A stretch of 32,000 bases of DNA. It comes from Candidatus Arthromitus sp. SFB-mouse-Japan. GTDB lineage: Bacteria > Bacillota > Clostridia > Clostridiales > Clostridiaceae. Location of the stretch: assembly GCF_000270205.1 (NCBI RefSeq), contig NC_015913.1, positions 1,070,188-1,102,187 on the forward strand. Reading direction: 5' to 3'. This document shows, in pieces, positions 12,136 through 26,185 of this stretch. The notes beneath the pieces were generated by a model. That model did no database searches and was not told the DNA's origin. It saw only the letters and a program-made list of their open reading frames with translations. The first letter of the stretch is position 1. Every line of letters begins with the position of its first letter. A program made the translations under genes and the position numbers.

Positions 12136-15100
12136 TTAATATCTTAGTCCCATAGAAGTAATATATTGTTTGAATTCTGATTCATTCATCATTTCACTAG
12201 CTATTCTTATTCTTAATTCTGCCAATGACTCTACTTGTAATTTATATTCATCATATTTTCCTTCCCAATACTTCTGTCCTTCTTCTTCAGGATCTCTTCC
12301 AACAACTATTTTATACATCATTTTTACGAATTCTTCTTTACTAAGATATCTGCTTATAAATTCATCTTGTTTCATCAAACCATAAATAAATTGAGTCACT
12401 GGTAATTCCTTAGATTCCAATTTTTGAACCCAAAATTTCCAACCCTCAACTTCTGGATCACGTCCAAGTGAAACAGAATAAATTTTTGATACAAATTCTG
12501 CAACTTTTCCAGTAGGTGGTTGTAATTCTTGTTTTGTCGTAAAAGAATCAATTTTATATCTAGTTATTAAACCATTCTCAAGTTTAAAAGTTATCTCTAA
12601 ATCTCTGTAAGTCGTCATTGGTTTCAAGTCGCTTAATCTTAAAATTAATGAATTTGTATCCCAAGTAAATTTAATTTTTTCATCATTCAAAGCTACACTA
12701 GATATTTTTGATTTTGGAGATGCGAATAATTCAAATACAATTTCCGCACTCTTATCAGTAGTAGTTATTTTCGTTGATTTTACATCAACAGATGGAGATT
12801 GAGGTGTGGATATTTTTGCATATTTTGATAATGTTTGTTCTTTATTATCCTTATCTTTCCAAATAAAATCAAGTTTATATACTGATTCAGTCTTTGGCTC
12901 TAGATTTGTGAATTTTAAGAGTCCTCCCTCTAACTTAAGCTCAACATTAGGATTATTGCTTGGCTTTTGGAAGTCAATTCTTAAAAATCTTTCATTTAAA
13001 TCATCAATTAATACTGGTATTTCAGCTTTTCTAGCCTCTAAAGTTTTGGCCTCAAATAAAGTTACATTAAATGAATCTGTTACACTCAACTCTGGTCCTG
13101 TCTGGTTATCAAGCGTTACATCTGGAACTTGGTGTATACCTGTAGTCGTAAAAACTGCACTTGGAGATGTAGGCGCACTAGGTATACTAACATTAGTTAT
13201 TTTATTAATATCATTCAATACTTGTCTTGTAATAAGTTCTCTCTTATCGATGTCTATATAGCTAAGTTCAAGAATCAAAAATCCATAATCTCTCTTCTCT
13301 GACAAATTATACAAAGTTAAAATAAAATAAATTTTCTCTTTCCCTTCAATTTTTTCAACTTTGTATTTCTCTTCACCTTTAAGTCCATTAACAGTTAAAT
13401 TCTTAATAGTTACATCACTATTATCAACTTCTATTACATATCTTAGAGATGTTTTATCATTCTTAACAGCAGGTATTATTGTTTTATTTGGAAGTTCAAC
13501 ATTTAATTTTGGAAAAAATACTTCAACTGTATCAGTGGAAGAAGCTGCTGACGAAAAAATTCCTTGTTTTATATCAACATATTTTTTTTCTGGATCAAGT
13601 TCTATATAGAGCTTAGGCTCTGTAAAGTTTGAAGTTCTAATTGATAAATTATGCGTGCTTACAGTTGTTACAGTTGTTACAGTTGAACTACCACTAGTAG
13701 TAGCAGATGTCATTATTTGTGAAAAGTAAAAAGTTTTTGTTATATCTTTGTCTTCTGGCTTCGCTGTTACATATAACTTTCTAAATGTATATGGAGTCGA
13801 TCTCTGTAATCCTGTTATATTAAGATATCCACCTTTTTCTGGTTTATCTGTATTAATTAAAGAAACAGATGCTGAATATTTGTTAAGTCTATCATCTTCT
13901 ACTTCCATCTTTGTTATTGTACTATCTTTATCAAATATCTTGAAAGTATTAAATCTTATGCTATTACCATTAGTTCTCAAGGCTATATTTGAAGCTGTAG
14001 TTGATATCATTTGTTCATAATCCAAATAAGTTGTATCATCTATAGAATTAAAATCAATATTCATTTTTGAACCTACATTACTATTAGGTAATGTATATAT
14101 CATATTTGAAACTTCAAGTGATGAATTTGATGATGATACTAAATAAGTTTCAAAAAGTGGTAATTGTTTACCAGTCTTGAAGTTTGTCATGCCGAATCCT
14201 TCAAGATAGTTAACAACTGATAGATTATTAAGATCAGGATAAAAAGTAATATTCTTGTTTAACGCAATAAACTGGTAATTTGTGTTAGTCTTCAAAAATT
14301 CGTATGGTTGAAAATCAGATCCATTCTTTATATCAAATTTTATAGCCATTCCATCAGCATTCAAATTCAAATTAGATGCTTTAACATTACTAGTCACAGA
14401 ATTATTGATTAATGAATCTTCTGCTATGATACTTCTTAAATAATCCATGCTTGTTGGAAATATAGTTTCTCCATCATAAATTACTGAAACTTGTTTAGGA
14501 GAAATATCATCAATATCTTTAAAACCAAATATTAATGGTAACGTATCACGATCATAATCAACATCATTAGACTGAAATACTTTTCTTAAAGCTAATGCCA
14601 AATGAGCTCTGTTTGTTATATTAGGTATTCCTGCAGGAGCACTAGGCGATGTCATCCCAGCTGGAGTTCTAACTCCATTAATATCATCAATCATCTCATT
14701 TGCAGCTTTGATCATAAAGTCTCTTAAACTAGCTGTTACAGTTGTCGGTGTACTAGAAATACTAGAAATACTAGAATCCATAAATACAACATCGTTTAAA
14801 TTAAAAGATGAAACTAATGATACTGTTGCAATAACATCCAAAATTTTTCCAGTCAATACGAAATTTGACTTAGCCTTACCTTGGAAAGTATACATTCCAC
14901 TCTCAACTGTAGTCTCTGCAGTAGATATTATTAAATCTACTCCTCCAATTGTACTCTTAAACTGCGAAATCGTTCCTGTTGGCTTAGTTACATTACTTGG
15001 AATTCTTGTATCTTCTACTGCTCTTGTCGCACCATAAACAGACATATTATCTAAATTATCTATTATTTCTTGATTAATTTTGGATTCATCTTGTAAATCA

Positions 15101-15663
15101 CTTATAATTTCTGAACTATCATTCGAAACTACTTGATCAATACTTAAATCTGGAATGATACTATCTTGGACTCCATCCATCTGTTCTACTTCCGTGTTTC
15201 CTTGATTATATTCTCCTGATCCGGACACGGTAACTCCATTCTCTTGAGCATCCGTTTGATCTTGTGAATCGTTTGTATTGTCCTCACTGTTATTTTCACT
15301 TTGTAGTGCATTTTCTTGACTGTTTGTTTCGTCATTTTCAATAATTTGTTCAGAATCTTCTTTCTTTTCAAATTCCATTTGAACAACATCTCCTTCCTCC
15401 ACTAATATTGTTTCCTCTTCTTTAGTGGATTCCTGAAAATCTTGTAATGGTTGTTCATTTTCACTCACGACCGTCTCCATATGTTCTAATTTTTCTACCT
15501 CATCTACGCTTTCAGCTGTATTTTTACTAATCCCACTATTAGCTTGCTCCATAATTTTATTATAAATTTCATTGAAATTTAATGAGTTATTATCATTTTG
15601 GTCTTTCATGAATTTTTTGATTCCTTTAAAATTAATTGATTCAATATCATTATTAGTTACCAT
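12136..15663 (-). CDS. Giant DUF4214-tailed protein, paralog A (no signal peptide; acidic low-complexity N-terminal module)
   Basis: 1175 aa. From SQFKSTIGGVDLII to the C-terminus it aligns with the three downstream-numbered paralogs, for example SLRYVIEVDNSD...RDYGFLILELSYID and PKSKISSVALND. The C-terminal ~125 aa is a tandem DUF4214-like repeat (LGRDPEVEGWKFWVQKL...VGRDPEEEGQKYWEGKY). An E/D/Q/N-rich region covers about 15049-15516. The N-terminus has no hydrophobic segment. There is an in-frame stop 4 codons upstream of the ATG and no good RBS. Confidence 0.85.
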   Translation of the reverse strand: MVTNNDIESINFKGIKKFMKDQNDNNSLNFNEIYNKIMEQANSGISKNTAESVDEVEKLEHMETVVSENEQPLQDFQESTKEEETILVEEGDVVQMEFEKKEDSEQIIENDETNSQENALQSENNSEDNTNDSQDQTDAQENGVTVSGSGEYNQGNTEVEQMDGVQDSIIPDLSIDQVVSNDSSEIISDLQDESKINQEIIDNLDNMSVYGATRAVEDTRIPSNVTKPTGTISQFKSTIGGVDLIISTAETTVESGMYTFQGKAKSNFVLTGKILDVIATVSLVSSFNLNDVVFMDSSISSISSTPTTVTASLRDFMIKAANEMIDDINGVRTPAGMTSPSAPAGIPNITNRAHLALALRKVFQSNDVDYDRDTLPLIFGFKDIDDISPKQVSVIYDGETIFPTSMDYLRSIIAEDSLINNSVTSNVKASNLNLNADGMAIKFDIKNGSDFQPYEFLKTNTNYQFIALNKNITFYPDLNNLSVVNYLEGFGMTNFKTGKQLPLFETYLVSSSNSSLEVSNMIYTLPNSNVGSKMNIDFNSIDDTTYLDYEQMISTTASNIALRTNGNSIRFNTFKIFDKDSTITKMEVEDDRLNKYSASVSLINTDKPEKGGYLNITGLQRSTPYTFRKLYVTAKPEDKDITKTFYFSQIMTSATTSGSSTVTTVTTVSTHNLSIRTSNFTEPKLYIELDPEKKYVDIKQGIFSSAASSTDTVEVFFPKLNVELPNKTIIPAVKNDKTSLRYVIEVDNSDVTIKNLTVNGLKGEEKYKVEKIEGKEKIYFILTLYNLSEKRDYGFLILELSYIDIDKRELITRQVLNDINKITNVSIPSAPTSPSAVFTTTGIHQVPDVTLDNQTGPELSVTDSFNVTLFEAKTLEARKAEIPVLIDDLNERFLRIDFQKPSNNPNVELKLEGGLLKFTNLEPKTESVYKLDFIWKDKDNKEQTLSKYAKISTPQSPSVDVKSTKITTTDKSAEIVFELFASPKSKISSVALNDEKIKFTWDTNSLILRLSDLKPMTTYRDLEITFKLENGLITRYKIDSFTTKQELQPPTGKVAEFVSKIYSVSLGRDPEVEGWKFWVQKLESKELPVTQFIYGLMKQDEFISRYLSKEEFVKMMYKIVVGRDPEEEGQKYWEGKYDEYKLQVESLAELRIRIASEMMNESEFKQYITSMGLRY

Positions 15664-16182: not shown

Positions 16183-19100
16183 TTAATACCTAAGTCCTAT
16201 TCTAGTTACTAACTCTTTAAATTCTGGTTGATCCATCATTTCTCTTGCAATCTTAATTCTAAGTTGCTCAATAGTTGAAACCTGGTCCCTGTATTCGACA
16301 TATTTACTTTCCCAGTATTTTTGACCTTCCTCTTCTGACTCCCTATCTACTATTAAAGTATACATCGTTGAAACAAACTTAGATTTAGTTAGCTCTCTAT
16401 CAACAAATTCTGGTTGAGTCATTAAATTCTCAGCTATAAATTCTGTAGCACTAAGTTCTTTACTTTGTAATTTCTCTATCCAAAAATTCCATCCTTCATT
16501 TTCTGGTTCACGTCCAAGTGCAATCTTATAAACTCTCCTCACAAATTCAGCCACATCACCTTTTGGTCTATTCTCATCAATAACTGTCTTAAAAGTTCCA
16601 AGTGGATATTCAACACTCTTGCCATTTTCTAAAATTAATCTTATAATAACATTTGTGTAGGTGTAGTCTGGTTTAAGTCCTTCTAATTTTATAGTGCTTA
16701 TATCTTTATCCCATGTTGCCTTAAGAGCATTGTTTAAATCATCAAGAACTGTAACTGACTTCACCTCCGATTTTGGATTGTTATAAATGTTTAATTTAAT
16801 ATTTACTTTAGTTAGGTCTACAACCTCAATATCCGTGGACTTAATATCATAATCTGGTGTTTCTGTAGTACTCAACTGAACATATTTTTTTATCTGTTTT
16901 GTTTCTCTAGAAACACCATTATCTTCGCAATTAAATATTATAGTAAACATCCCACTCGTTTCTGGTTTCAAATCGCTAAATTCCAATATAAAGTTATCAT
17001 AACTTACTCTAGCATTTGGATTATCTACAGGATTTTCAACATCAATTGAAGTTACTCTATTTTCTAGGTCATCAATTAAAATCGGAACTCTTGCCACTCT
17101 TGCATATGATGATGTAAAACTATCACTCAATGAAATCTGCACGGCCTCTTCAATCGGTAAAGACTCGGCCTCAGTCATGTTGTCATATTTTGTATTTTCA
17201 CCTTTTGTCGAATTTAATGTAGATAAACTCTTCCTAGAAGTTTGAACGTTACCACTATCATCTAAATAATTTAATTCCAAAATTACAAATCCATAATCTT
17301 TATTCTTCTCTAAATTGTTTAAAGTTACTATATAGTAGTTTTGTTTCTGAACCCTATCTACTATCTTCTCAACTTGATATGATTCCGAACCCGTAAGACT
17401 TATAACTTTAAGATCTAAAATATTTCCTTGCTTATTATCAACTTTAAAAACATATCTTAGAGCTGTATCAGAATTTTTAACGGTATTCATTTCAATACCA
17501 TTTGGAAGTTTAACTGTCGAAGAATTTGTAGCTGCCAATTGAATTTTTGGTTCAGGTTGCTTAATAGTCCTTATAGGTATATAATTCTGTTTCACACTTC
17601 CATTATCATAACAACCCAAATCCAATTCTTGGCTTGTCATTCTTCCATCCGTATTTGATGTAATAAATAATTTTGTAAAAATATAAGACGTATCGCTTTC
17701 AAGACCATTAACTTCAATCGAAAAAGTATCTGTATATTCTGAAATTAAACTACAACTATATCTATAACCTCGATCATCCTGAATTTCAACCCTTGATATA
17801 CTCCTATCAGGATCACGGAAAGTTATATTTTTAAATTTAATAGAATTTTCTGCGATAGAAATATCTGATTCACTTGTCCCATATGATCCCATATCCAAAT
17901 AAACACCATTTTTAAATTGTGTAACATACATATCATTTTTTGATGTACCTTGTAAGTTTTGAGAATTTGTTTCATATAAATTAGGTTTCGCTGCATTTTT
18001 AGATATAAACAATGCTGGTGCTTTACCTGTTTTACAATTACTTAATCCAGTTAAAGTCAACTTAACATCATCGCCGACAGTTATATCTCGATTTGTTTGT
18101 GACTCCTCTAGAGCACCAAGACTATAAACTGTATTAGTTAGAAGTTTATCACCAACATTTTCATTTCTAACTACAATTCTCAAAGCAATATTACTTGGAT
18201 CAATTCCATTATCTAATTTCGTATTACCTAGATCAATGATGCTTTTTATATAATCATCAGTATTAGGTACAAAATCTGAACTCATTTTAATCTTCTTCAC
18301 ACCATGTGTACTTTCAAATGATAATTGTGCATTCATATCATCTAATATCTTAGAAAGGGCATCACGAAGTTTCTTTCTCTCTGTTACAGTTTCAGAACTA
18401 CGGTCACCTTTTGCCTCTTGATATGCTCTCTTAATTAAATCTCCAAGAGTTCCAGTTTCAAAATTTTTAACTCCATAAGTTAAAGGCTCTTCTTCAGTAT
18501 CTTCTACATCATCTGTAATGTCACTATCCTCAGAGTCTGTTGGAGGTTTTGTTGATTCACTCGGTGATTCTTGTGATGGTGGTAAGCTTGATGATCCTTC
18601 CATATTAACTTCATCATCACTGGGTTGATCTGTACTTCCTCCATCAACTTCTGGTTTTTCTTCTTCACCAACATCTGGAGTCCCATTTACACCATTATCT
18701 GGAATTCCTTCTCCCTCATCTGGTTTATTACCACCATCTTCTGTTGGTGGTTTTTGTTCTCCATCTCCATTACTCGGTTTATCACTATCTTCTCCTGATG
18801 AATCTCCTGAACCATCATCAGTACCTCCCTCTGAAGGCTTGTTCTCATCTTCTCCATTATCTATATCACCTCCACCAGTTCCATCATCTGGTTGTTCTGG
18901 AGTTACTGGTATATCAATCTTTGACTCTAATATTTTTCCTGATAATTTCAAACTCAACTCTATTGTTCCATAAGGTGTATATGATTCTCCCGCTCCAACT
19001 AGCTCAGAACTTCCTGTACTTTTTACAATCTGAACTTGACTTTGATTTGTTACTGTTGGCTCTGAAGGTTGTTGATCTCCTCCACTTTCTGGTGGTGTTT

Positions 19101-19524
19101 GAGAAGTATCTCCATCACTACCAGTTGGTGGTGTTGTATCTCCTTCAATTGTTGGCGGTATTGCAACTTCATCGTTTGATGGAGGTTTACTTGAACCCCC
19201 TTCATCCACTGATGGTCCCTCTGAATCTTCACCTTCACCACCTTCAGAACCATCTCCTGAACTATCATCACTTGGTGGTATAGTTCCCTCTACTTGTTCT
19301 GTATCGTCAGGATTCTCACTTTCTTCACTAGATTCTCGAGTAATCGTAGTATTTAAATATGCGTACAATGAATCACTATCTTGACTTACCTCAGCTCTTG
19401 CGTAATTCAAAGCTGTTGCAACTTCCCTATTATATTGTGTACTATAAGGCACAAAGCATCCTGAAAAAATACTTGATGTAACAAACATCGTAATTAACAT
19501 AAAACTAACTTTTCTCTTATTCAT
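16183..19524 (-). CDS. Giant surface lipoprotein with C-terminal DUF4214 tandem, paralog B (two P/E/D/G/S-rich modules)
   Basis: 1113 aa. Signal peptide MNKRKVSFMLITMFVTSSIFSGC (lipobox FSGC, Cys23) with a GGGAGGG RBS. Low-complexity modules lie at about 19051-19335 and 18487-18912. The core aligns with paralogs A, C and D. The C-terminal ~127 aa (LGREPENEGWNFWIEKL...VDRESEEEGQKYWESKY) is about three quarters identical to paralog C by hand alignment. Confidence 0.9.
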   Translation of the reverse strand: MNKRKVSFMLITMFVTSSIFSGCFVPYSTQYNREVATALNYARAEVSQDSDSLYAYLNTTITRESSEESENPDDTEQVEGTIPPSDDSSGDGSEGGEGEDSEGPSVDEGGSSKPPSNDEVAIPPTIEGDTTPPTGSDGDTSQTPPESGGDQQPSEPTVTNQSQVQIVKSTGSSELVGAGESYTPYGTIELSLKLSGKILESKIDIPVTPEQPDDGTGGGDIDNGEDENKPSEGGTDDGSGDSSGEDSDKPSNGDGEQKPPTEDGGNKPDEGEGIPDNGVNGTPDVGEEEKPEVDGGSTDQPSDDEVNMEGSSSLPPSQESPSESTKPPTDSEDSDITDDVEDTEEEPLTYGVKNFETGTLGDLIKRAYQEAKGDRSSETVTERKKLRDALSKILDDMNAQLSFESTHGVKKIKMSSDFVPNTDDYIKSIIDLGNTKLDNGIDPSNIALRIVVRNENVGDKLLTNTVYSLGALEESQTNRDITVGDDVKLTLTGLSNCKTGKAPALFISKNAAKPNLYETNSQNLQGTSKNDMYVTQFKNGVYLDMGSYGTSESDISIAENSIKFKNITFRDPDRSISRVEIQDDRGYRYSCSLISEYTDTFSIEVNGLESDTSYIFTKLFITSNTDGRMTSQELDLGCYDNGSVKQNYIPIRTIKQPEPKIQLAATNSSTVKLPNGIEMNTVKNSDTALRYVFKVDNKQGNILDLKVISLTGSESYQVEKIVDRVQKQNYYIVTLNNLEKNKDYGFVILELNYLDDSGNVQTSRKSLSTLNSTKGENTKYDNMTEAESLPIEEAVQISLSDSFTSSYARVARVPILIDDLENRVTSIDVENPVDNPNARVSYDNFILEFSDLKPETSGMFTIIFNCEDNGVSRETKQIKKYVQLSTTETPDYDIKSTDIEVVDLTKVNIKLNIYNNPKSEVKSVTVLDDLNNALKATWDKDISTIKLEGLKPDYTYTNVIIRLILENGKSVEYPLGTFKTVIDENRPKGDVAEFVRRVYKIALGREPENEGWNFWIEKLQSKELSATEFIAENLMTQPEFVDRELTKSKFVSTMYTLIVDRESEEEGQKYWESKYVEYRDQVSTIEQLRIKIAREMMDQPEFKELVTRIGLRY

Positions 19525-19544
19525 TTCAAACCCTCCCTGTTTTT

Positions 19545-19575
19545 AAAAAAAAAGATGGCTAGATAAGCCATCTTT
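19545..19575 (-). terminator. Strong intrinsic terminator between paralogs C and B
   Basis: Perfect 10-bp stem aaagatggct (19551-19560) / agccatcttt (19566-19575) with a 5-nt loop. On the minus strand a continuous run of 9 T starts within the descending arm of the stem and extends past it (complement of the plus-strand A run 19545-19553). An A-rich tract precedes the stem, so it could act in both directions. Confidence 0.85.
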
Positions 19576-19589
19576 CTTTTTTGAAATGA

Positions 19590-22500
19590 TTAATATATCA
19601 ATTGAAGTTTAGTCACTAACTCTTTAAACTCTGGTTGATCCATCATTTCTTTTGCAATTTTAATTCTTAACTCAGCTATAGACTTAACTTGATCCTTGTA
19701 TTCATCATATTTTCTTTCCCAATAGTTTTGGCCATCACTATCTGGCTCCCTATTAACTATTAATGAATACATTGTCGTAACAAACCTCGATTTACTTAAC
19801 TCCCTATCCACAAATTCTGGTTGAGTCATTAAGTTTTCTGCAATAAATTCTGTAGCTGAAATCTCTTTTGATGTTAATTTTCCAATCCAAAAATTCCATC
19901 CTTCAACTTCTGGCTCACGTCCAAGAGCTATTGTATAAACTCTTGCAACAAAATCTGCAACTGCTCCAGTTGGTTTAATAATTTCTTCGCTAGTTGTAAA
20001 TGGAGTCAACTCATATTTACTTGTCAATTTATTTTCGAGAGTAAATGTTACTACAAGCTCACTATACTCTTTGTTTGATTCAAGATTATACAATGTTATA
20101 GTATTAGTTGTTTTATCCCAAGAACTTCTTATTACCTTAGAGTTTTTATCTTTAATTTCTATTGCCTTAATAGGTGATTTTGGATTTTCATAATACTCAA
20201 GTTTTATAGTCACTTCATTTCCTTTAACAGTTGCTGTATCGCTCTTAATATCTACTTCTGGCACAGCTGGAGTCATAACTTTTAAATATTTTGTTAATAC
20301 TTTATCATTACCACTTGCATCTTTGTAATTAAATTCTAAAGTTATTGTTGTAGTTGCATTAGGTTTTAATCCTGTAACATCTAAATAAGAATCCTTATAC
20401 TCAACTTTAACATCTGAATTATTTGTTACAGGTTTAAAAGTCATACCAGATACTCTTCCATAAATATCATCAACAAAAACTGGAACTCTTGCTTTTCTTG
20501 CATATTCACTCTTAAACTCATCATTCATTATTACGTTAACATCATTTAATCCTGTTAAAGCTTCCTTCTCTGTTCTATTATCCATTGTTGGATTTTTATC
20601 ATCAGTCTTATAAATATTTCCTATAGATTGTCTTGTAGTTTTATCATTACCACTTGCATCCTTATAACCAAGCTCAAAAATCACATGACTATAATCAGTA
20701 TTAGGTGTAAGACCTGTTAAAGTTACTATATAATAGTTAGTTTTTGTCTTACTATCTTCAATCTTTTTAACATCTGCTTTCTCATTTGAAGTTAAAGAAA
20801 GTACTTGTAAATCTCCAATATTTCCTTCATTATTATCAACTTTAACTATATATCTAAGTGCTGTAGAATCATTCTTAACTGGTTTTACTTTTAATCCATT
20901 AGGTAAAGTAACATCTTCAGTTACCTTTGCAGAACCTAATTCTATTTTTGGCTCAGAAACTTGAGTTGTTCTAACAGATAATTGGTTAGCTGTAACATTA
21001 TTACTAGCATCCACGTTAGCTAAATCGATTGTAACCGTTTTATCTTTTACCCCAGTGTTTGAAGTTACAAGCAATTTTGTAAACGTGTATGACATATCCC
21101 TCTCAAGGTTATTTACTTGAACATAATATCCATTATCTTTATTTGAAAGATCAACTGGAACTAGACTACACGTATATTTTGTACCTCTAGCATCCTGCAT
21201 TTCAATTTTCACAATAGTACTATCTGGATCGTTTAAAACTATATTTTTATATTTAATTGATGTTCCACTAGCTACTATTCCTTCTTTAACATTTTCGTGA
21301 TAATCTGTCATGTTTAAATAAATTCCTGGTTTAATCATCGTTGTTATATATTTATCTTTTAAAGTACCCTTATCAGTACCTGATGAAGTCTGATATATAA
21401 CACTTGTAGTTTTATCTTCCTTCTGAGCTGTTAAAATTGAAGGTGATTTACCCGTTCTACATTCTGGTACTGTAAAGCCTGATATGAATTGATTATCATT
21501 TGCATCTACCTTAATATTATTTCCATCACTGTTAGTTCCACCTATACCAACAAATGTATAGTCAGTGTTGGTTTTTAATATTGAGTTATCATTATTTGAT
21601 GCAGAACTATTTCTTATCATCATTCTTAATACAACATCTTTAGAATCCGTAGATCTTGCAGTTCTCATAGTTCTTCCTGTAGTCCTCATACTGTTTAAAT
21701 CTATAATACCTCTTACATAATCCTTGTTACTAGTTTTATCTGGGAATATATCGCTAATTGGAACATTTACAAGGGTACCTTTTGGATCTCTAAACATTAA
21801 CGTTTTTCCTGTATTATTATCACAAATCACTTTTTTAAGAGCAGCTTGCAAAGCTTCTCTAGCTGTTGTTGTACCTTCTCCTGACCATCCACTGTTAGAA
21901 TCTTTAATTGCTTCATCAAAGGCACCTGAAATTAATCCACTTAGATTTTCTTTATTTAATACTTCTCCTGATAACTTAAAGCTCAAATAAATAACACCTT
22001 GAATATTACCATCATCACCTGTACCTATTACTTCGCTTGATCCAACACTCTTTAATGGTACGAATTCTCCTATCGTTGTTCTTTCTGTGCTAGCTTGTGG
22101 AGAAATAGCAGATTGTGAATTAGACTGTGGAAGATTTGGATCATTTTGAGCATTATTATTAATAGTTACTCCACTAGTTGATGGTGTTGTTCCTTCGCTA
22201 ACTCCATTATTTGGAGATATAATATTCCCTTGTCCTGAATTATCTACTACACCTGTACCTTGTGAAATGCCTGAATTATCTACTATATCTGTACCTTGTG
22301 AAGAATTTGAACCTGTTAAATCATTTGTATCAGTCAATGAAGAAATATCATCTTCTACAACAGCTCCCCCAAATCCTGTCATAGTATTACCGTTACTAAA
22401 TGAATTAATATTATCATTTGATATTATTTCATCAGATGGAGACATTTCATATGGTGTCATTTCATAATCTGTTCCCATTTGATCAAATAAATTTGTATCA

Positions 22501-22877
22501 TTTGACCTTGCACCCATTTTTATATCATTTGTTGTTTCACCATTTTGAATTCCATTGTCATATACATTTGTGTCACCACTAAAAATATTTTGATCATCCA
22601 TTAATGCTCCATCTGTAATTTCATCACCATAGGTAACATTTGGATAATTTCCAGGATTATAATCTGGCGCTGTATTATCTGTATATGGGTTATTTACTCC
22701 ATATCCATCTCCTGTATATTCTGTAACAGTTCTATCTGTTGCTCTTCTAAATGCATCCTCTCCTTGTGCTACATTTGCACCATTATCTGCACTCTTATTA
22801 TTTGATGTGCATCCTGTTAACATACTTGAGGCAACAACTAATCCAGTTAATAGAAGTGTAATTTTTTTTCTATTCAT
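19590..22877 (-). CDS. Giant surface lipoprotein with C-terminal DUF4214 tandem, paralog C (N/S/T/G/D-rich module)
   Basis: 1095 aa. Signal peptide MNRKKITLLLTGLVVASSMLTGC (lipobox LTGC, Cys23) with an AGGAGG RBS. The low-complexity module lies at about 22077-22808. Serial beta-sandwich-like modules cover aa ~538-962 (nt ~19992-21266) and carry recurring G-L-x-P-x-T-x-Y type motifs. The DUF4214-like tandem covers aa ~969-1095 (nt 19593-19973). Confidence 0.9.
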   Translation of the reverse strand: MNRKKITLLLTGLVVASSMLTGCTSNNKSADNGANVAQGEDAFRRATDRTVTEYTGDGYGVNNPYTDNTAPDYNPGNYPNVTYGDEITDGALMDDQNIFSGDTNVYDNGIQNGETTNDIKMGARSNDTNLFDQMGTDYEMTPYEMSPSDEIISNDNINSFSNGNTMTGFGGAVVEDDISSLTDTNDLTGSNSSQGTDIVDNSGISQGTGVVDNSGQGNIISPNNGVSEGTTPSTSGVTINNNAQNDPNLPQSNSQSAISPQASTERTTIGEFVPLKSVGSSEVIGTGDDGNIQGVIYLSFKLSGEVLNKENLSGLISGAFDEAIKDSNSGWSGEGTTTAREALQAALKKVICDNNTGKTLMFRDPKGTLVNVPISDIFPDKTSNKDYVRGIIDLNSMRTTGRTMRTARSTDSKDVVLRMMIRNSSASNNDNSILKTNTDYTFVGIGGTNSDGNNIKVDANDNQFISGFTVPECRTGKSPSILTAQKEDKTTSVIYQTSSGTDKGTLKDKYITTMIKPGIYLNMTDYHENVKEGIVASGTSIKYKNIVLNDPDSTIVKIEMQDARGTKYTCSLVPVDLSNKDNGYYVQVNNLERDMSYTFTKLLVTSNTGVKDKTVTIDLANVDASNNVTANQLSVRTTQVSEPKIELGSAKVTEDVTLPNGLKVKPVKNDSTALRYIVKVDNNEGNIGDLQVLSLTSNEKADVKKIEDSKTKTNYYIVTLTGLTPNTDYSHVIFELGYKDASGNDKTTRQSIGNIYKTDDKNPTMDNRTEKEALTGLNDVNVIMNDEFKSEYARKARVPVFVDDIYGRVSGMTFKPVTNNSDVKVEYKDSYLDVTGLKPNATTTITLEFNYKDASGNDKVLTKYLKVMTPAVPEVDIKSDTATVKGNEVTIKLEYYENPKSPIKAIEIKDKNSKVIRSSWDKTTNTITLYNLESNKEYSELVVTFTLENKLTSKYELTPFTTSEEIIKPTGAVADFVARVYTIALGREPEVEGWNFWIGKLTSKEISATEFIAENLMTQPEFVDRELSKSRFVTTMYSLIVNREPDSDGQNYWERKYDEYKDQVKSIAELRIKIAKEMMDQPEFKELVTKLQLIY
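20302..20667 (-). repeat. In-frame intragenic repeat pair in paralog C, 339 nt (113 codons) apart
   Basis: ttatcattaccacttgcatctttgtaa (20302-20328) and ttatcattaccacttgcatccttataa (20641-20667). The first 20 nt are identical and 25 of 27 match overall. Both encode YKDASGNDK at the end of consecutive beta-sandwich-like modules. Confidence 0.8.
22233..22304 (-). repeat. 36-nt in-frame tandem duplication inside the variable module of paralog C
   Basis: cctgaattatctactacacctgtaccttgtgaa (22234-22266) and cctgaattatctactatatctgtaccttgtgaa (22270-22302) sit 36 nt apart. They encode SSQGTDIVDNSG / ISQGTGVVDNSG. Confidence 0.8.
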
Positions 22878-22930: not shown

Positions 22931-25900
22931 TTAATATTTTAATCCTAATGAAGTTACTAACTCCTTGAACTCCTTCTCATTCATCATTTCTCTTGCTATT
23001 TTAATTCTCAAGGTTGCAACTGAACTTGTTTGTTCTCTGTATTCGTTATATTTTTTCTCCCAATAACTTTGTCCATCTTCATCTGGAGTTCTATTAACTA
23101 TCAATGAGTACATAGTTGTAACGAATTGTTGTTTATTTAACTCTCTTTCAATAAACTCTGGTTGAGTCATTAAATTTTCAGCTATAAACTCTGTAGCTGA
23201 AAGCTCTTTAGACGTTAATTTATTAACCCAGAAATTCCATCCTTCAGCCTCTGGCTGACGTCCAAGTGCTATTGTATAGACTCTTGATACAAAGTTCGCA
23301 ACATCACCTGTTGGTTTTGGAGTAACTGTACCAGTTTTAAATGAAGTTAATGGATACTCTATAACTTCTGTATTTTCTAAAGTAAACTTAGCAATCAATC
23401 CTTTAAACTCCGTATTTGCATCCAATCCTTGTATAAAAATTGAATTTGTTGATGAATCCCAATTAGAAGTATATTTTTTACCTGTTGAATCCTCAATTGA
23501 TATAGATTTAATAGGAGATTTTGGTGTTGAATAATACTCAAGTTTAACTATAGCCTCATTTTCCTTAATAATCACTGTATCTGATTTAATATCTAAATCT
23601 CCTGTAACTGGTGTCTTTATAGTTACATACTTTCTCATACTTTTCTCTATACCAGCATCAGTTTTATAAACAAATTCTAAAGTAATAGTAGTGCTTGAAT
23701 TTGGAGTTAAACCTGTTACATTTACATAAGAACCATCATACTCAACTTTAACATCTAAATTTGATTCTAATGGAATGTAATTCATCCTAACAAATCTTCC
23801 ATTCATATCATCAATGAATAATGGAACTCGCGTACTCCTTGCATAATCAGCTTTATGATTTGTTTCAATATCTACTGTAAAAGTGCCTTGTCCTGTAATA
23901 GGAGTATTCTCTGTTACGTTATCAACTGTTTTATCATCTCTCTTAGTATTAATTTGAGCTAATGTTGTTCTAAGAACCCCATCTTTTCCATCATAATCTT
24001 TATAATCTAATTCTAAATTAACAAAATTATAATCTGTTCCTGGAGATAGACTACTTAAAGTTACTACATAATAATTAGTTTTACTTTTCTTATCTACAAT
24101 CTTTTGAATCTTAGACTCTTCTCCAGGTCTTAAACTCGTTACTCTTAACTCCCCAATATTATCTTCGGAATTATCAACTTTTAAAACATATCTAAGAGAA
24201 GTTGCATCATTCTTAACAGCTTGTACCTTTAATCCACCAGGAAGTGTAACAGTTTGTTTTGGTCCATCTGCTCCTAACTCTAACTTTGGCTCACTAAAGT
24301 TAGTTGTTTTAATTGCTGTAGTATTAACTGTAGCCCCCGCAGTATCTTTTTTCATCAATTGAAGTACGTTTAATTGATCCTTACCTTCAGTATTTGTAGT
24401 TATATCAATTTCTGTAAAGATGTAACTACTATCAGTTCTTAATCCACTAATTTGCAAATATTTACCAGCTTTTTTGTTATCAGGATCTACTTGAATTAAT
24501 GTTCCAGGATAAGTTTTGCCCTCTGAATCTTTCATTTCAATCTTAACTATACTATCATCAGAATCAACAAACTTAATCCCTTTAAATCTTATAGTTGTAC
24601 CCCTAGCCTCTACTTTATCAGGACTATTTAAATCGAAATCTTCTACGTTTAGATAATTTTTCTTATTAAGTTTTGTTACATATACCGTTCCAGTAGTTAC
24701 AGTTCCTGCTGAACCATTACTAAGATTTTCATATATAGCACTAGTTGAACTGTCTTTCATTATTTGTATAGTAGAAGGAGCTTTAGCTGTTGTTGCTTGA
24801 GGAATTCTTAATCCTGTAAGAACTTTATCATCTTTTATTGGTAACTCATTATTCTTAACTGTGCTACCAGTTAAACCTACAAATGTATAACTTGTATTTG
24901 TAGCTAACTCATCATTACCTTGTCCATCTGCACTTTGAAATCTCATAATAAGTGTAATTGGAATATCTTGTGAAGTAGCTCTTACTGATCTTTTTCCACC
25001 ATCTCTGTACATACCATCAATGTCAATTATTCTTCTTACATACTGTGAATTTTTATTCTTATCAGGACAAATATTAGCAGCTGTATATGGTATGTTAATT
25101 ATTTGACCCTTACTGTCCTGAAATGTAAAATTATTACCAGTATCTGTTGGATTAAATATCTCAGCTAATCCTTTTTGTAAAGCTTCTCTTGCTGTAGTAT
25201 TTTGTGCAGCTCCTTCAAAGTTTGTATTCGCATCTTGTAAAGTTTCTTCATAAGCCTTTTGTATTAAATCAGCTAAAGTACTTTGAGTACTGCCATTGGT
25301 AACTTGTGTAGAAAGTACATCTCCTGTTAACTTGAAACTAAATCTAATAGTTCCTTGTGGTTTTTTACTTCCTTGAGCACCGGTTAATTCTACACCACCA
25401 ATACTTCTTACAGGTACTATATTACCAGCTACAGTACTTTGAGTATTTCTACCCTCTTGTATTGTTTGTGGAGTATCCATGACTTGTCCATTAATATCTG
25501 AACTCATATTTGTATTTGGAGTCATTCCATTCTGAGTATTATTATTTACATCCATATCATTTTTAGTTGTGTCAGAATTATTAGATATATTTGGATTTTC
25601 AGTTGTATTTAGATTGCTATCAACTCCATTTATCCCAGACACATCTTGTCTACTTGAATTTGTTGACCCATCTGATAAATCACTTCCATTTGTTCTATCT
25701 GGTAATCTTCCAAAACCATTCAATGGCTCCATGATAGACGCATTGTTTTGGAATTCATTTATATTATCTTTTCCTGACACATCCTCTGATGAAATCAAAT
25801 TATTTCCCGTTCCATTTTCATTTATTGACTCATCAGATGTTATATCTCTAGAATATCTATTTAAATTCTCATCTACTGAGTTATTAAATCCATTATCAGT

Positions 25901-26185
25901 TCCATTATCAAACTCATTAACTGTATCCATTCCCGTTATATCATCAGCATAAGCAACATCTGGATATCCTCCAGATTGATATTGATTATTAGAATTGTAT
26001 GGATATTGCGCTTCTTCTTTAAACTCTGTTACAATTCTCTCTGTTGCTCTCTGCAATCCATTCTCATCATATTGAGAAACTTTATTGTTATCTTGAGTTT
26101 TGTTACCTGATGATGCACATCCTGTAAATATACTTGAGGCGATCGCTAATCCAGTTAATAGAAGTGTAATTTTTTTTCTATTCAT
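22931..26185 (-). CDS. Giant surface lipoprotein with C-terminal DUF4214 tandem, paralog D (N/S/T/G/D-rich module)
   Basis: 1084 aa. Signal peptide MNRKKITLLLTGLAIASSIFTGC (lipobox FTGC) with an AGGAGG RBS. The low-complexity module lies at about 25433-26116. The core and C-terminus are colinear with paralog C. It sits 53 nt upstream of paralog C with no terminator between them. Confidence 0.9.
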   Translation of the reverse strand: MNRKKITLLLTGLAIASSIFTGCASSGNKTQDNNKVSQYDENGLQRATERIVTEFKEEAQYPYNSNNQYQSGGYPDVAYADDITGMDTVNEFDNGTDNGFNNSVDENLNRYSRDITSDESINENGTGNNLISSEDVSGKDNINEFQNNASIMEPLNGFGRLPDRTNGSDLSDGSTNSSRQDVSGINGVDSNLNTTENPNISNNSDTTKNDMDVNNNTQNGMTPNTNMSSDINGQVMDTPQTIQEGRNTQSTVAGNIVPVRSIGGVELTGAQGSKKPQGTIRFSFKLTGDVLSTQVTNGSTQSTLADLIQKAYEETLQDANTNFEGAAQNTTAREALQKGLAEIFNPTDTGNNFTFQDSKGQIINIPYTAANICPDKNKNSQYVRRIIDIDGMYRDGGKRSVRATSQDIPITLIMRFQSADGQGNDELATNTSYTFVGLTGSTVKNNELPIKDDKVLTGLRIPQATTAKAPSTIQIMKDSSTSAIYENLSNGSAGTVTTGTVYVTKLNKKNYLNVEDFDLNSPDKVEARGTTIRFKGIKFVDSDDSIVKIEMKDSEGKTYPGTLIQVDPDNKKAGKYLQISGLRTDSSYIFTEIDITTNTEGKDQLNVLQLMKKDTAGATVNTTAIKTTNFSEPKLELGADGPKQTVTLPGGLKVQAVKNDATSLRYVLKVDNSEDNIGELRVTSLRPGEESKIQKIVDKKSKTNYYVVTLSSLSPGTDYNFVNLELDYKDYDGKDGVLRTTLAQINTKRDDKTVDNVTENTPITGQGTFTVDIETNHKADYARSTRVPLFIDDMNGRFVRMNYIPLESNLDVKVEYDGSYVNVTGLTPNSSTTITLEFVYKTDAGIEKSMRKYVTIKTPVTGDLDIKSDTVIIKENEAIVKLEYYSTPKSPIKSISIEDSTGKKYTSNWDSSTNSIFIQGLDANTEFKGLIAKFTLENTEVIEYPLTSFKTGTVTPKPTGDVANFVSRVYTIALGRQPEAEGWNFWVNKLTSKELSATEFIAENLMTQPEFIERELNKQQFVTTMYSLIVNRTPDEDGQSYWEKKYNEYREQTSSVATLRIKIAREMMNEKEFKELVTSLGLKY

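What the first reader, a model, noticed from the sequence alone, without database searches (positions are those of the whole stretch)
18487..19335. Each paralog carries a compositionally different low-complexity N-terminal module; paralog B has an extra ~140-aa P/E/D/G/S-rich insertion
Seen: between the lipobox and the conserved core, C (nt ~22077-22808) and D (~25433-26116) are N/S/T/G/D-rich. A (~15049-15516) is E/D/Q/N-rich. B has a Pro/Glu/Asp/Gly/Ser-rich module (~19051-19335). B also has a second module of the same type (~18487-18912, PEQPDDGTGGGD...KPSEGG...KPSNGDGEQKPPTEDGGNKPDEGEG...EEEP), inserted exactly where C and D pass straight from KL(S/T)G(E/D)VL into the conserved helical segment. 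The B modules make the plus strand locally pyrimidine-rich and visibly raise the G+C content. Inference: the conserved scaffold is combined with interchangeable, fast-evolving disordered tethers. The Pro-rich, acidic B modules look like wall-spanning spacers or ion/host-matrix binding regions.
Basis: partly seen in the sequence, partly recalled or inferred. Interest (0 to 1): 0.6.

Follow-up and report, generated by a model that had tools for sequence, protein, structure and literature searches.

The report
Disordered acidic spacers in SFB surface protein
One of four tandem surface-protein genes of the mouse gut symbiont SFB carries two floppy, strongly acidic, proline-rich segments that evolve almost freely while the folded protein is conserved: a real feature of a familiar kind whose function is untested.

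Summary
The window comes from a mouse segmented filamentous bacterium (SFB). It carries four tandem paralogs (A-D) of an SFB-only surface-protein family ending in DUF4214.

Paralog B has two Pro/Glu/Asp/Gly/Ser-rich segments, aa 64-158 and 205-346, with net charges -26 and -41. No other ORF in the 1.62-Mb genome has such a region.

AlphaFold gives pLDDT below 50 across both segments. The G+C rise sits only at codon positions 1 and 2.

Module 2 is not an artefact and not mouse-specific. Eight independent assemblies carry the same 3342-nt gene, and rat-SFB orthologs have it at the same junction (146-160 aa, against 4-58 aa in all other family members).

A model of C's head domain (pTM 0.84) shows that junction joins a beta-hairpin to a helix inside one compact domain. 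So module 2 is a surface loop, not a tether.

Between mouse and rat, the modules and tethers evolve with omega 0.56-0.85 and many indels, while the cores run at 0.16-0.21. "Fast-evolving and disordered" is supported. "Interchangeable" is not: each orthogroup keeps its own type.

Mouse B's modules have no trypsin or chymotrypsin sites, and all 7 lysines are Lys-Pro.

This is an ordinary kind of feature. The same stretch was also noted in another window of this scan.

The parts
16183..19524 (-). Paralog B, 1113 aa: SFB-specific surface protein with a C-terminal DUF4214
   Evidence: ORF and translation. Pfam PF13946, E 1.5e-13. Rat ortholog at 65-70% identity.
19456..19524 (-). B signal peptide with lipobox-like IFSGC (aa 1-23)
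   Evidence: Sequence. The rat orthologs have H or R in place of the Cys.
19336..19455 (-). B N-proximal segment (aa 24-63), not low-complexity
   Evidence: Lies on the folded side of the charge-hydropathy plot. AF2 predicts helices at low confidence. YAYLN is conserved in rat.
19051..19335 (-). B module 1 (aa 64-158): polyanionic S/E/P/G/D-rich disordered segment
   Evidence: Composition and net charge -26. pLDDT about 30. Omega 0.65 with 5 gap events against rat.
18913..19050 (-). Conserved beta-hairpin of the head domain (aa 159-204)
   Evidence: 52% identity to C's hairpin, E 1e-9. Omega 0.10. AF2 strands E181-185 and E188-196. In C the hairpin has pLDDT 81-96 within a compact domain.
18487..18912 (-). 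B module 2 (aa 205-346): 142-aa polyanionic D/E/G/P/S-rich loop inserted at the hairpin/helix junction
   Evidence: Alignments. Net charge -41. pLDDT 24-34. Omega 0.83 with 7 gap events. All 6 Lys are Lys-Pro.
17851..18486 (-). Rest of the B head domain (aa 347-558): helical hairpin plus mixed beta
   Evidence: AF2 pLDDT is mostly 70-90. C's equivalent domain has pTM 0.84 and no PDB analogue. Only 19 relatives among 1.84 billion representative proteins.
16570..17850 (-). String of Ig/FN3-like beta-sandwich domains (aa 559-985)
   Evidence: AF2 pLDDT 80-95. Foldseek hits to titin, filamin and FN3 arrays.
16186..16569 (-). C-terminal DUF4214 tandem helical domain (aa 986-1113)
   Evidence: Pfam match in 2 stretches. 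AF2 helices 990-1109.
22077..22808 (-). Paralog C N-terminal tether: N/T/G/S/D-rich and acidic
   Evidence: Composition. Omega 0.75 against 0.19 in the core. Contains the RATDRTVTEY and YPNVTYGDE motifs.
25433..26116 (-). Paralog D N-terminal tether: N/S/D/T/G-rich and acidic
   Evidence: Composition. Omega 0.56 against 0.17 in the core.
15049..15516 (-). Paralog A N-terminal E/N/S/D/Q-rich acidic region, with no signal peptide before it
   Evidence: Sequence. Composition. Omega 0.70 against 0.21 in the core.
19551..19575 (-). Intrinsic-terminator-like hairpin between the C stop codon and the B ribosome-binding site
   Evidence: A 10-bp stem and T-run lie about 10 nt before GGGAGGG and the ATG of B.

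Best explanation
B's two modules are intrinsically disordered, polyanionic, proline-rich spacers in an SFB-specific cell-surface protein.

The protein's layout is: signal or lipoprotein leader, then a disordered segment, then an SFB-only head domain, then a rod of Ig/FN3-like domains, then a DUF4214 tandem. The literature treats DUF4214 as the likely wall anchor.

Module 1 replaces the Asn-rich acidic tether that the rest of the family carries after the leader. Module 2 is a large loop that grew at a permissive beta-hairpin/alpha-helix junction inside the head domain, in the common ancestor of the mouse and rat B orthologs.

Selection appears to act on bulk properties rather than on sequence. 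Those properties are length, about -0.25 to -0.3 net charge per residue, about 10% Pro, and the absence of hydrophobic and basic residues. That would explain why substitutions and indels accumulate at a nearly neutral rate.

The inferred role is an extended, hydrated, negatively charged spacer or brush. It would hold or shield the head domain at the cell surface and would survive pancreatic proteases in the ileum.

Shown here: the anatomy, the predicted disorder, the evolutionary pattern, the restriction to one clade and the native origin. Inferred: the spacer/brush role and protease resistance as a selected trait.
For: - Disorder: pLDDT is below 50 over B residues 1-180 and 206-357, while the core is mostly at 80-95. 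The modules lie on the disordered side of the charge-hydropathy boundary.
- Loop position: C's head domain models as one compact unit (pLDDT 86.5, pTM 0.84) in which the hairpin runs straight into the helix. B's hairpin is homologous to C's.
- Permissive site: linker lengths at this junction are 4-37 aa across the family, about 58 aa in P0063 and 146-160 aa in the B clade.
- Ancestral and real: the rat orthologs have both modules. Thirteen protein variants and 8 DNA haplotypes from independent runs all have the same length.
- Relaxed sequence constraint: omega is 0.65 and 0.83 in the modules against 0.10 and 0.16 in the hairpin and core, and indels are concentrated in the modules. Within mouse SFB, Pn/Ps is 12/2 in the modules against 6/4 in the rest of the gene.
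- Bulk properties conserved between mouse and rat: module 2 length is 144-158 aa, D+E is 0.30-0.35, net charge per residue is -0.25 to -0.30, and Pro is 0.08-0.11.
- Native origin: GC3 is 0.10, with the usual A/T-ending codons.
- Protease sites: the 237 module residues hold no tryptic site, no F/Y/W and one L/M. All 7 of 7 Lys are Lys-Pro, which none of 100,000 shuffles reached.
- Surface context: DUF4214 is regarded as a likely SFB surface-anchoring domain (PMC12780176, PMC3371716).
Against: - There is no experimental or expression evidence.
- Near-neutral omega is equally what a functionless tolerated insertion would show.
- The conservation of length and composition rests on only four B-clade sequences, and three of them are close relatives.
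- Alignment of low-complexity sequence is uncertain, so dN and dS in the modules are rough.
- The absence of protease sites in mouse B follows largely from the composition. The Lys-Pro pattern could be inherited from a degenerate KPxxGxG repeat unit rather than selected. The rat modules have a few exceptions.
- Loss of the lipobox Cys in rat B argues against an obligatory membrane tether.
- I could not inspect the model coordinates, so hairpin docking is inferred from pTM and pLDDT.
Confidence: 0.65

Rival explanations
1. The modules are functionless, tolerated low-complexity expansions. They arose by replication slippage or drift in a small-population symbiont, at sites where the fold permits insertions.
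For: Omega is 0.65-0.85 with frequent indels. The junction also accepts unrelated inserts of 37 and about 58 aa in other family members. There is no detectable homology between module 1 and module 2 beyond composition.
Against: Module 2 kept its length (144-158 aa), charge density and Pro content across a divergence with dS of about 0.8. Pro is rare in this proteome at 2.4%, and SFB's proline pathway is reported as incomplete (PMC3371716), so the modules are costly. The Lys-Pro exclusivity is non-random.
Confidence: 0.2
2. The modules are exposed immunodominant regions under diversifying selection from host IgA and T cells. They would act as decoys or host-specific variable epitopes.
For: Amino-acid polymorphism among mouse SFB strains is concentrated in the modules: 12 of 243 sites against 9 of 870 elsewhere, p = 4e-4. 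Pn/Ps is 12/2. Two other DUF4214 family members are the known Th17 and CD8 antigens (PMC12780176, PMC13174671).
Against: Omega stays below 1 everywhere. A Pn/Ps of 6 is close to the neutral site ratio of roughly 3.5, and the counts are tiny. There is no length variation among mouse strains. No serological data exist.
Confidence: 0.1
3. The modules bind a specific partner, such as divalent cations (Ca2+ or Mg2+), host mucus or matrix, or wall polymers.
For: The modules have high acidic charge density. A few short motifs persist between mouse and rat: KPSEG, PSEP(S/T)KP and DDSS.
Against: There is no recognisable binding motif or domain. About 60% of the aligned residues differ between mouse and rat. 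No experimental data exist.
Confidence: 0.05
4. The insertion in B is an assembly or annotation artefact.
For: None found.
Against: The same 1113-aa protein occurs in complete genomes of 1.59, 1.62 and 1.65 Mb and in Logan and ENA assemblies of separate runs. The rat orthologs carry the insertion too.
Confidence: 0.01

Closest known systems
SFB-specific DUF4214 secreted proteins ('Cluster.1/Cluster.3' of Pamp et al. 2012, PMC3371716). The family includes the Th17 antigen P3340 and the CD8 antigen SFBNYU_003240.
   Same: All share the C-terminal DUF4214 tandem, predicted secretion, restriction to SFB, polymorphism between mouse SFB lineages and low mouse-rat identity. B, C, D and A match these proteins over the last 120-250 aa.
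   Different: This four-gene subfamily has a lipobox leader (B, C, D), a long acidic N-terminal tether and its own head domain. Most other DUF4214 proteins in the genome have plain signal peptides and no long low-hydrophobicity stretch. B's Pro-rich acidic modules are unique in the genome.
Pro/Gly-rich wall-spanning regions of Gram-positive surface proteins, such as streptococcal M protein, protein A region X and the pneumococcal PspA proline-rich region (from general knowledge)
   Same: Both are proline-rich, hydrophilic, low-complexity segments next to an anchoring element, thought to act as extended spacers through or above the wall. They are variable in sequence between strains.
   Different: Those regions lie next to a C-terminal LPXTG or choline-binding anchor. 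Here there is no LPXTG. Module 1 follows an N-terminal leader and module 2 is a loop inside a folded domain. B's modules are much more acidic.
Intrinsically disordered N-terminal linkers of bacterial lipoproteins (bioRxiv 10.1101/2021.01.05.425367, E. coli outer-membrane lipoproteins)
   Same: Both are disordered linkers placed directly after the lipobox, separating the lipid anchor from the folded part.
   Different: Those linkers were described in Gram-negative Lol sorting. The SFB tethers (135-300 aa) look much longer, judged from general knowledge of such linkers. SFB is a monoderm, and rat B has no lipobox Cys.
Pro-rich extended spacers with Lys-Pro/Glu-Pro or PEVK-type composition, such as the TonB periplasmic spacer and titin PEVK (from general knowledge)
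   Same: Both combine charged residues with Pro, contain Lys-Pro dipeptides, and are predicted to adopt an extended, polyproline-II-like, non-globular conformation.
   Different: There is no regular repeat here: TRF finds none. The net charge is strongly negative rather than mixed, and there is no homology.

Membership tests
DUF4214 (PF13946) proteins / SFB Cluster.1-type surface proteins | A C-terminal DUF4214 match above Pfam's gathering score | tested here: met
   B scores 51 bits, A 54.7, C 62.7 and D 56, against a cut-off of 23.2. Each match comes in two stretches.
DUF4214 (PF13946) proteins / SFB Cluster.1-type surface proteins | An N-terminal secretion signal | tested here: inconclusive
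   B, C and D have a basic n-region, a hydrophobic core and (S/T)GC. A has none. No SignalP or LipoP tool was available.
Bacterial lipoproteins | A lipobox [LVI][ASTVI][GAS]C at the end of the signal peptide | tested here: inconclusive
   C has the canonical LTGC. B (FSGC) and D (FTGC) have Phe at position -3. The rat-type B orthologs have H or R instead of Cys. Lipidation itself cannot be tested here.
Intrinsically disordered / low-complexity regions | Low hydropathy with high net charge, low sequence entropy and no confident predicted structure | tested here: met
   Mean hydropathy is 0.32-0.34 against a boundary of 0.51-0.52. Entropy is 3.2-3.3 bits against 4.0 in the core. pLDDT is below 50.
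LPXTG wall-anchored proteins with Pro-rich wall-spanning regions | A C-terminal LPXTG sorting signal adjacent to the Pro-rich region | tested here: not met
   B has no LPXTG-like motif, and the protein ends in DUF4214.
Tandem-repeat surface proteins (slippage-prone repeat arrays) | Detectable head-to-tail repeats with copy-number polymorphism between strains | tested here: not met
   TRF finds only a 12-nt x 2.2 array scoring 33 at the module edge. Only short degenerate matches turn up. All 13 mouse variants are 1113 aa. A degenerate KPxxGxG periodicity is visible by eye only.
Collagen-like proteins | Runs of G-X-Y triplets | tested here: not met
   None of the four paralogs has a run of 5 or more GXY triplets.

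The most novel reading that the evidence does not exclude
This four-gene array may encode the still unidentified outer layers of SFB seen by cryo-ET in 2025: the S-layer, the 'hair-like layer' or the tip-restricted 'disordered hair-like structures'. Under this reading, B's protease-site-free, polyanionic, Pro-rich loop and tether would form the disordered hairs, or a host-lineage-specific brush at the adhesive tip. The evidence does not exclude it. The proteins are SFB-specific and predicted to be rod-shaped surface proteins carrying the presumed wall anchor. The composition of those layers is unknown (PMC12780176). B sits on the longest branch of the family tree.
Probability: 0.07. Interest if true: 0.75.

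Novelty: new member of a known kind. Interest (0 to 1): 0.3.

Why it matters
SFB is the model commensal for induction of intestinal Th17, IgA and CD8 responses. Both mapped T-cell antigens belong to the same DUF4214 surface-protein superfamily. What makes up the SFB surface layers is still an open question.

Knowing which parts of these proteins are conserved folded scaffold and which are free-running disordered spacers helps in three ways: designing recombinant constructs, choosing antibody or nanobody targets, and choosing epitopes.

The apparent absence of trypsin and chymotrypsin sites in an exposed disordered region suggests a simple, testable adaptation to life in the ileum. In itself, though, a fast-evolving acidic or proline-rich linker in a bacterial surface protein is not surprising.

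Tried and rejected
- Assembly artefact: rejected. Identical gene length appears in 8 independent assemblies and in 3 complete genomes.
- Foreign or horizontally acquired DNA as the cause of the G+C rise: rejected. The rise is confined to codon positions 1 and 2, GC3 is lower than in the core, and codon choice is native.
- Recent tandem duplication, or module 2 as a copy of module 1: rejected. TRF is negative. The module 1 vs module 2 alignment score is barely above composition-matched shuffles (z 1.9 for protein, 1.1 for DNA).
- Module swapping or gene conversion between paralogs ('interchangeable'): no tracts found. Paralog nucleotide identity is 0.4-0.8 throughout, and the tether type follows the tree.
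- Mouse-specific insertion: rejected, because the rat orthologs share it.
- Strain length polymorphism in B: none among mouse SFB. It appears only between the mouse and rat lineages. Paralog A does show 3-aa indels between strains, but these lie outside its N-terminal tether.
- Sequence or fold relatives for the head domain: none in the PDB by sequence or by Foldseek. There is no NCBIfam model. Only 19 relatives turn up in 1.84 billion representatives, all of family-typical length apart from a few short fragments and sharing the family's leader where read.
- LPXTG motifs and collagen-like repeats: absent.
- The antisense ORF 18744-19283 (+): it translates to an L/H/V/Y-rich string and is best read as a by-product of the purine-rich sense strand.
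Full report
**What is there.** The window has about 28-30% G+C. It holds four tandem minus-strand ORFs: A 12136-15663, B 16183-19524, C 19590-22877 and D 22931-26185. All four end in a DUF4214 tandem (PF13946, 51-63 bits against a cut-off of 23.2).

The genome is a single 1,620,005-bp contig. The closest named homologue of B is a DUF4214 protein of Candidatus Arthromitus sp. SFB-rat-Yit. So this is a mouse segmented filamentous bacterium (SFB).

About 26 ORFs in the genome carry DUF4214. They include the genes holding the published Th17 and CD8 T-cell epitopes (PMC12780176, PMC13174671, bioRxiv 10.64898/2026.10.17.759871). The literature describes this set as SFB-specific secreted 'Cluster.1/3' proteins that are polymorphic between lineages (PMC3371716). 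It regards DUF4214 as the likely surface-anchoring domain (PMC12780176).

**Check of the observation.** Module 1 is B aa 64-158 and module 2 is B aa 205-346.

- P+E+D+G+S makes up 0.75 and 0.73 of the modules, against 0.32 in the core.
- Net charges are -26 and -41.
- Pro is only 2.4% of the proteome.
- A scan of 1,205 ORFs finds B as the only protein with an acidic Pro-rich region. The one other hit is a basic Ser/Thr/Lys-rich protein.
- Local G+C is 0.40-0.41 against about 0.30. The rise is confined to codon positions 1 and 2 (0.67/0.57 against 0.41/0.34), while GC3 is lower (0.10 against 0.19) and codon choice is native. The base-composition signal is therefore just the amino-acid composition, not foreign DNA.

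Two corrections are needed. A has no signal peptide or lipobox in any of the five SFB genomes. The C and D tethers contain conserved short motifs: RAxERxVTEY in 17 of 36 family members and YPxVAYADD in 10 of 36. B and A lack both.

**Where module 2 sits.** All family members share a conserved element...KS.G(G/S).E...G.I..SFKL(S/T)G(E/D)(V/I)L, followed by a helix, L..LI..AY.E. B's copy of the element is 52% identical to C's over 33 residues (E 1e-9).

The distance between the two is 4-37 residues in 32 family members from several SFB species. It is about 58 in one further member and 146-160 in the B clade only.

An AlphaFold model of C's head domain (aa 261-536, 32-sequence alignment) has mean pLDDT 86.5 and pTM 0.84. 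It shows a long beta-hairpin running directly into the first helix of a helical hairpin. Module 2 is therefore a loop at a strand/helix junction inside a compact domain, not a tether.

The full-length B model gives pLDDT below 50 for residues 1-180 and 206-357, 66-75 for the hairpin, and mostly 80-95 for residues 358-1113. I could not read the coordinates, so docking of the hairpin is inferred from pTM and pLDDT.

The core resembles strings of Ig/FN3 domains. The head domain has no PDB analogue by sequence or fold. It has only 19 relatives among 1.84 billion representative proteins, which look like members of this SFB family.

**Is it real, and how old is it?** The 1113-aa protein occurs in complete genomes of 1.59, 1.62 and 1.65 Mb and in many Logan and ENA assemblies. 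Seven further DNA copies from separate sequencing runs are all 3342 nt.

The rat-SFB ortholog and two rat-like variants have both modules at the same positions. On a core-only tree the B clade has 100% support. It sits on the longest internal branch (0.75 substitutions per site) and is sister to the C/D-type group. The modules are thus an ancestral, clade-specific trait of B and not an artefact.

**Evolutionary pattern.** Mouse-rat Nei-Gojobori estimates:

| Segment | Omega | Gap events |
|---|---|---|
| B module 1 | 0.65 | 5 |
| B module 2 | 0.83 | 7 |
| B hairpin | 0.10 | 0 |
| B core | 0.16 | 4 in 768 columns |
| C tether / core | 0.75 / 0.19 | 9 / 4 |
| D tether / core | 0.56 / 0.17 | 6 / 5 |
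| A tether / core | 0.70 / 0.21 | 7 / 5 |

Gap events run at about 3.5 per 100 columns in the tethers and 0.56 in the cores. Alignment of low-complexity sequence is uncertain, so these values are approximate.

Among 13 distinct mouse-SFB B proteins there is no length variation. Variable residues are 12 of 243 in the modules against 9 of 870 elsewhere (Fisher p = 4e-4). At the DNA level, Pn/Ps is 12/2 in the modules and 6/4 in the rest of the gene, while synonymous density is similar. That fits relaxed constraint or weak diversifying selection rather than a mutational hot spot.

D shows a weaker enrichment, C a non-significant one and A none. A's strain indels lie outside its tether.

Despite about 60% sequence change, module 2 keeps its bulk properties in mouse and rat:
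- length 144-158 aa
- D+E 0.30-0.35
- net charge per residue -0.25 to -0.30
- Pro 0.08-0.11

**'Interchangeable' is not supported.** Tether type follows phylogeny. Modules 1 and 2 are no more alike than composition-matched shuffles. No gene-conversion tracts link the paralogs.

**A specific sequence feature.** In mouse B's 237 module residues, all 7 Lys are followed by Pro; none of 100,000 shuffles reached this. There is no Arg, no Phe/Tyr/Trp and only one Leu/Met. That means zero canonical trypsin sites and zero main chymotrypsin sites, against 12 and 8 per 100 residues in the core.

The C and D tethers are poor in Lys/Arg but keep aromatic residues. The pattern in B is compatible with selection for survival of an exposed disordered chain in the protease-rich ileum. 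It is equally compatible with descent from a degenerate KPxxGxG unit. The rat modules show a few exceptions near their structured flanks.

**Most likely mechanism.** These are disordered polyanionic spacers selected for bulk properties. Module 1 separates the leader or anchor from the head domain. Module 2 is a protruding charged loop or brush on the head domain.

Loss of the lipobox Cys in the rat-type B proteins (H or R) argues that lipid anchoring is dispensable. In that case the DUF4214 end is the main attachment.

The rivals are a functionless tolerated expansion, an immune decoy under diversifying selection, and specific cation or host binding. None can be excluded without experiments. 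An assembly artefact is excluded.

**Novelty.** The family, its SFB restriction and its polymorphism were already described (PMC3371716). Disordered Pro-rich or acidic spacers in surface proteins are a familiar kind. What is added here:
- the localisation of the variability to the disordered parts
- the recognition that B's second module is an intradomain loop at a recurrent insertion site
- its restriction to the B clade of mouse- and rat-type SFB (the only clade among the sampled family members that has it)
- the protease-site-free composition

The same stretch was also noted in another window of this scan (e1-2608253).

Noticed in passing
window 19525-19589: On the coding (minus) strand, C's stop codon is followed by a 10-bp G+C-containing hairpin and a T-run. 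GGGAGGG and the ATG of B follow within about 25 nt. B may therefore depend on terminator read-through or on a promoter inside C.
   Followed up: partly
window 12136-15663 (paralog A) and its orthologs in L029, L031, L032 and L033: The A-type paralog lacks any signal peptide or lipobox in all five SFB genomes examined, yet keeps the full head domain, Ig rod and DUF4214. It also carries its own 37-aa hydrophobic/Ser-rich insert at the same hairpin/helix junction. Mouse strains differ by 3-aa indels at aa 297-299 and 661-663.
   Followed up: partly
genome G000:C1:1333917-1337129 (-), outside the window: The Th17-antigen gene of this strain reads QFNGAVPNKTD where the published SFB3340 tetramer peptide is QFSGAVPNKTD. 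This is a Ser-to-Asn difference inside the immunodominant epitope. The second recalled epitope, IRWFGSSVQKV, is intact at 1146083-1147045.
   Followed up: partly
window 21270-22097 (C head domain) and its equivalents in A, B and D: The roughly 275-aa head domain models confidently (pTM 0.84). It has no Foldseek match in the PDB (best E 2.9e-3, TM below 0.25) and only 19 sequence relatives in 1.84 billion representatives. It is a candidate new fold restricted to SFB.
   Followed up: yes
L029-L034 and L027 (other SFB genomes): The locus is syntenic across five SFB genomes: Na/Ca exchanger, polysaccharide deacetylase, the lipoprotein paralogs, the A-type gene, an SBP_bac_5 protein and an M28 peptidase. 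The number of lipoprotein paralogs varies from 1 to about 5. Candidatus Dwaynia gallinarum and one uncultured Arthromitus MAG have a single copy.
   Followed up: partly
window 22077-22808 and 25433-26116: Two short motifs, RA(T/S/A)(E/D)R(T/I)VTE(Y/F) at about aa 45-57 and YP(D/N)VAYADD at about aa 64-82, are conserved across many family members inside the otherwise fast-evolving tether. They may be docking or processing motifs. The B clade and the A type lack them.
   Followed up: partly
window 18744-19283 (+): A 179-aa antisense ORF overlaps B's modules. Its L/H/V/Y-rich translation looks like a by-product of the purine-rich sense strand, not a gene.
   Followed up: partly
genome G000:C1:1431644-1433587 (-), outside the window: A 647-aa ORF has a roughly 300-aa basic Ser/Thr/Lys/Pro/Asn-rich low-complexity region with KPS/NKP repeats and C-terminal DGSGY(Y/L)DKDGNF repeats. 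It is the only other Pro-containing low-complexity protein flagged in the genome scan.
   Followed up: no
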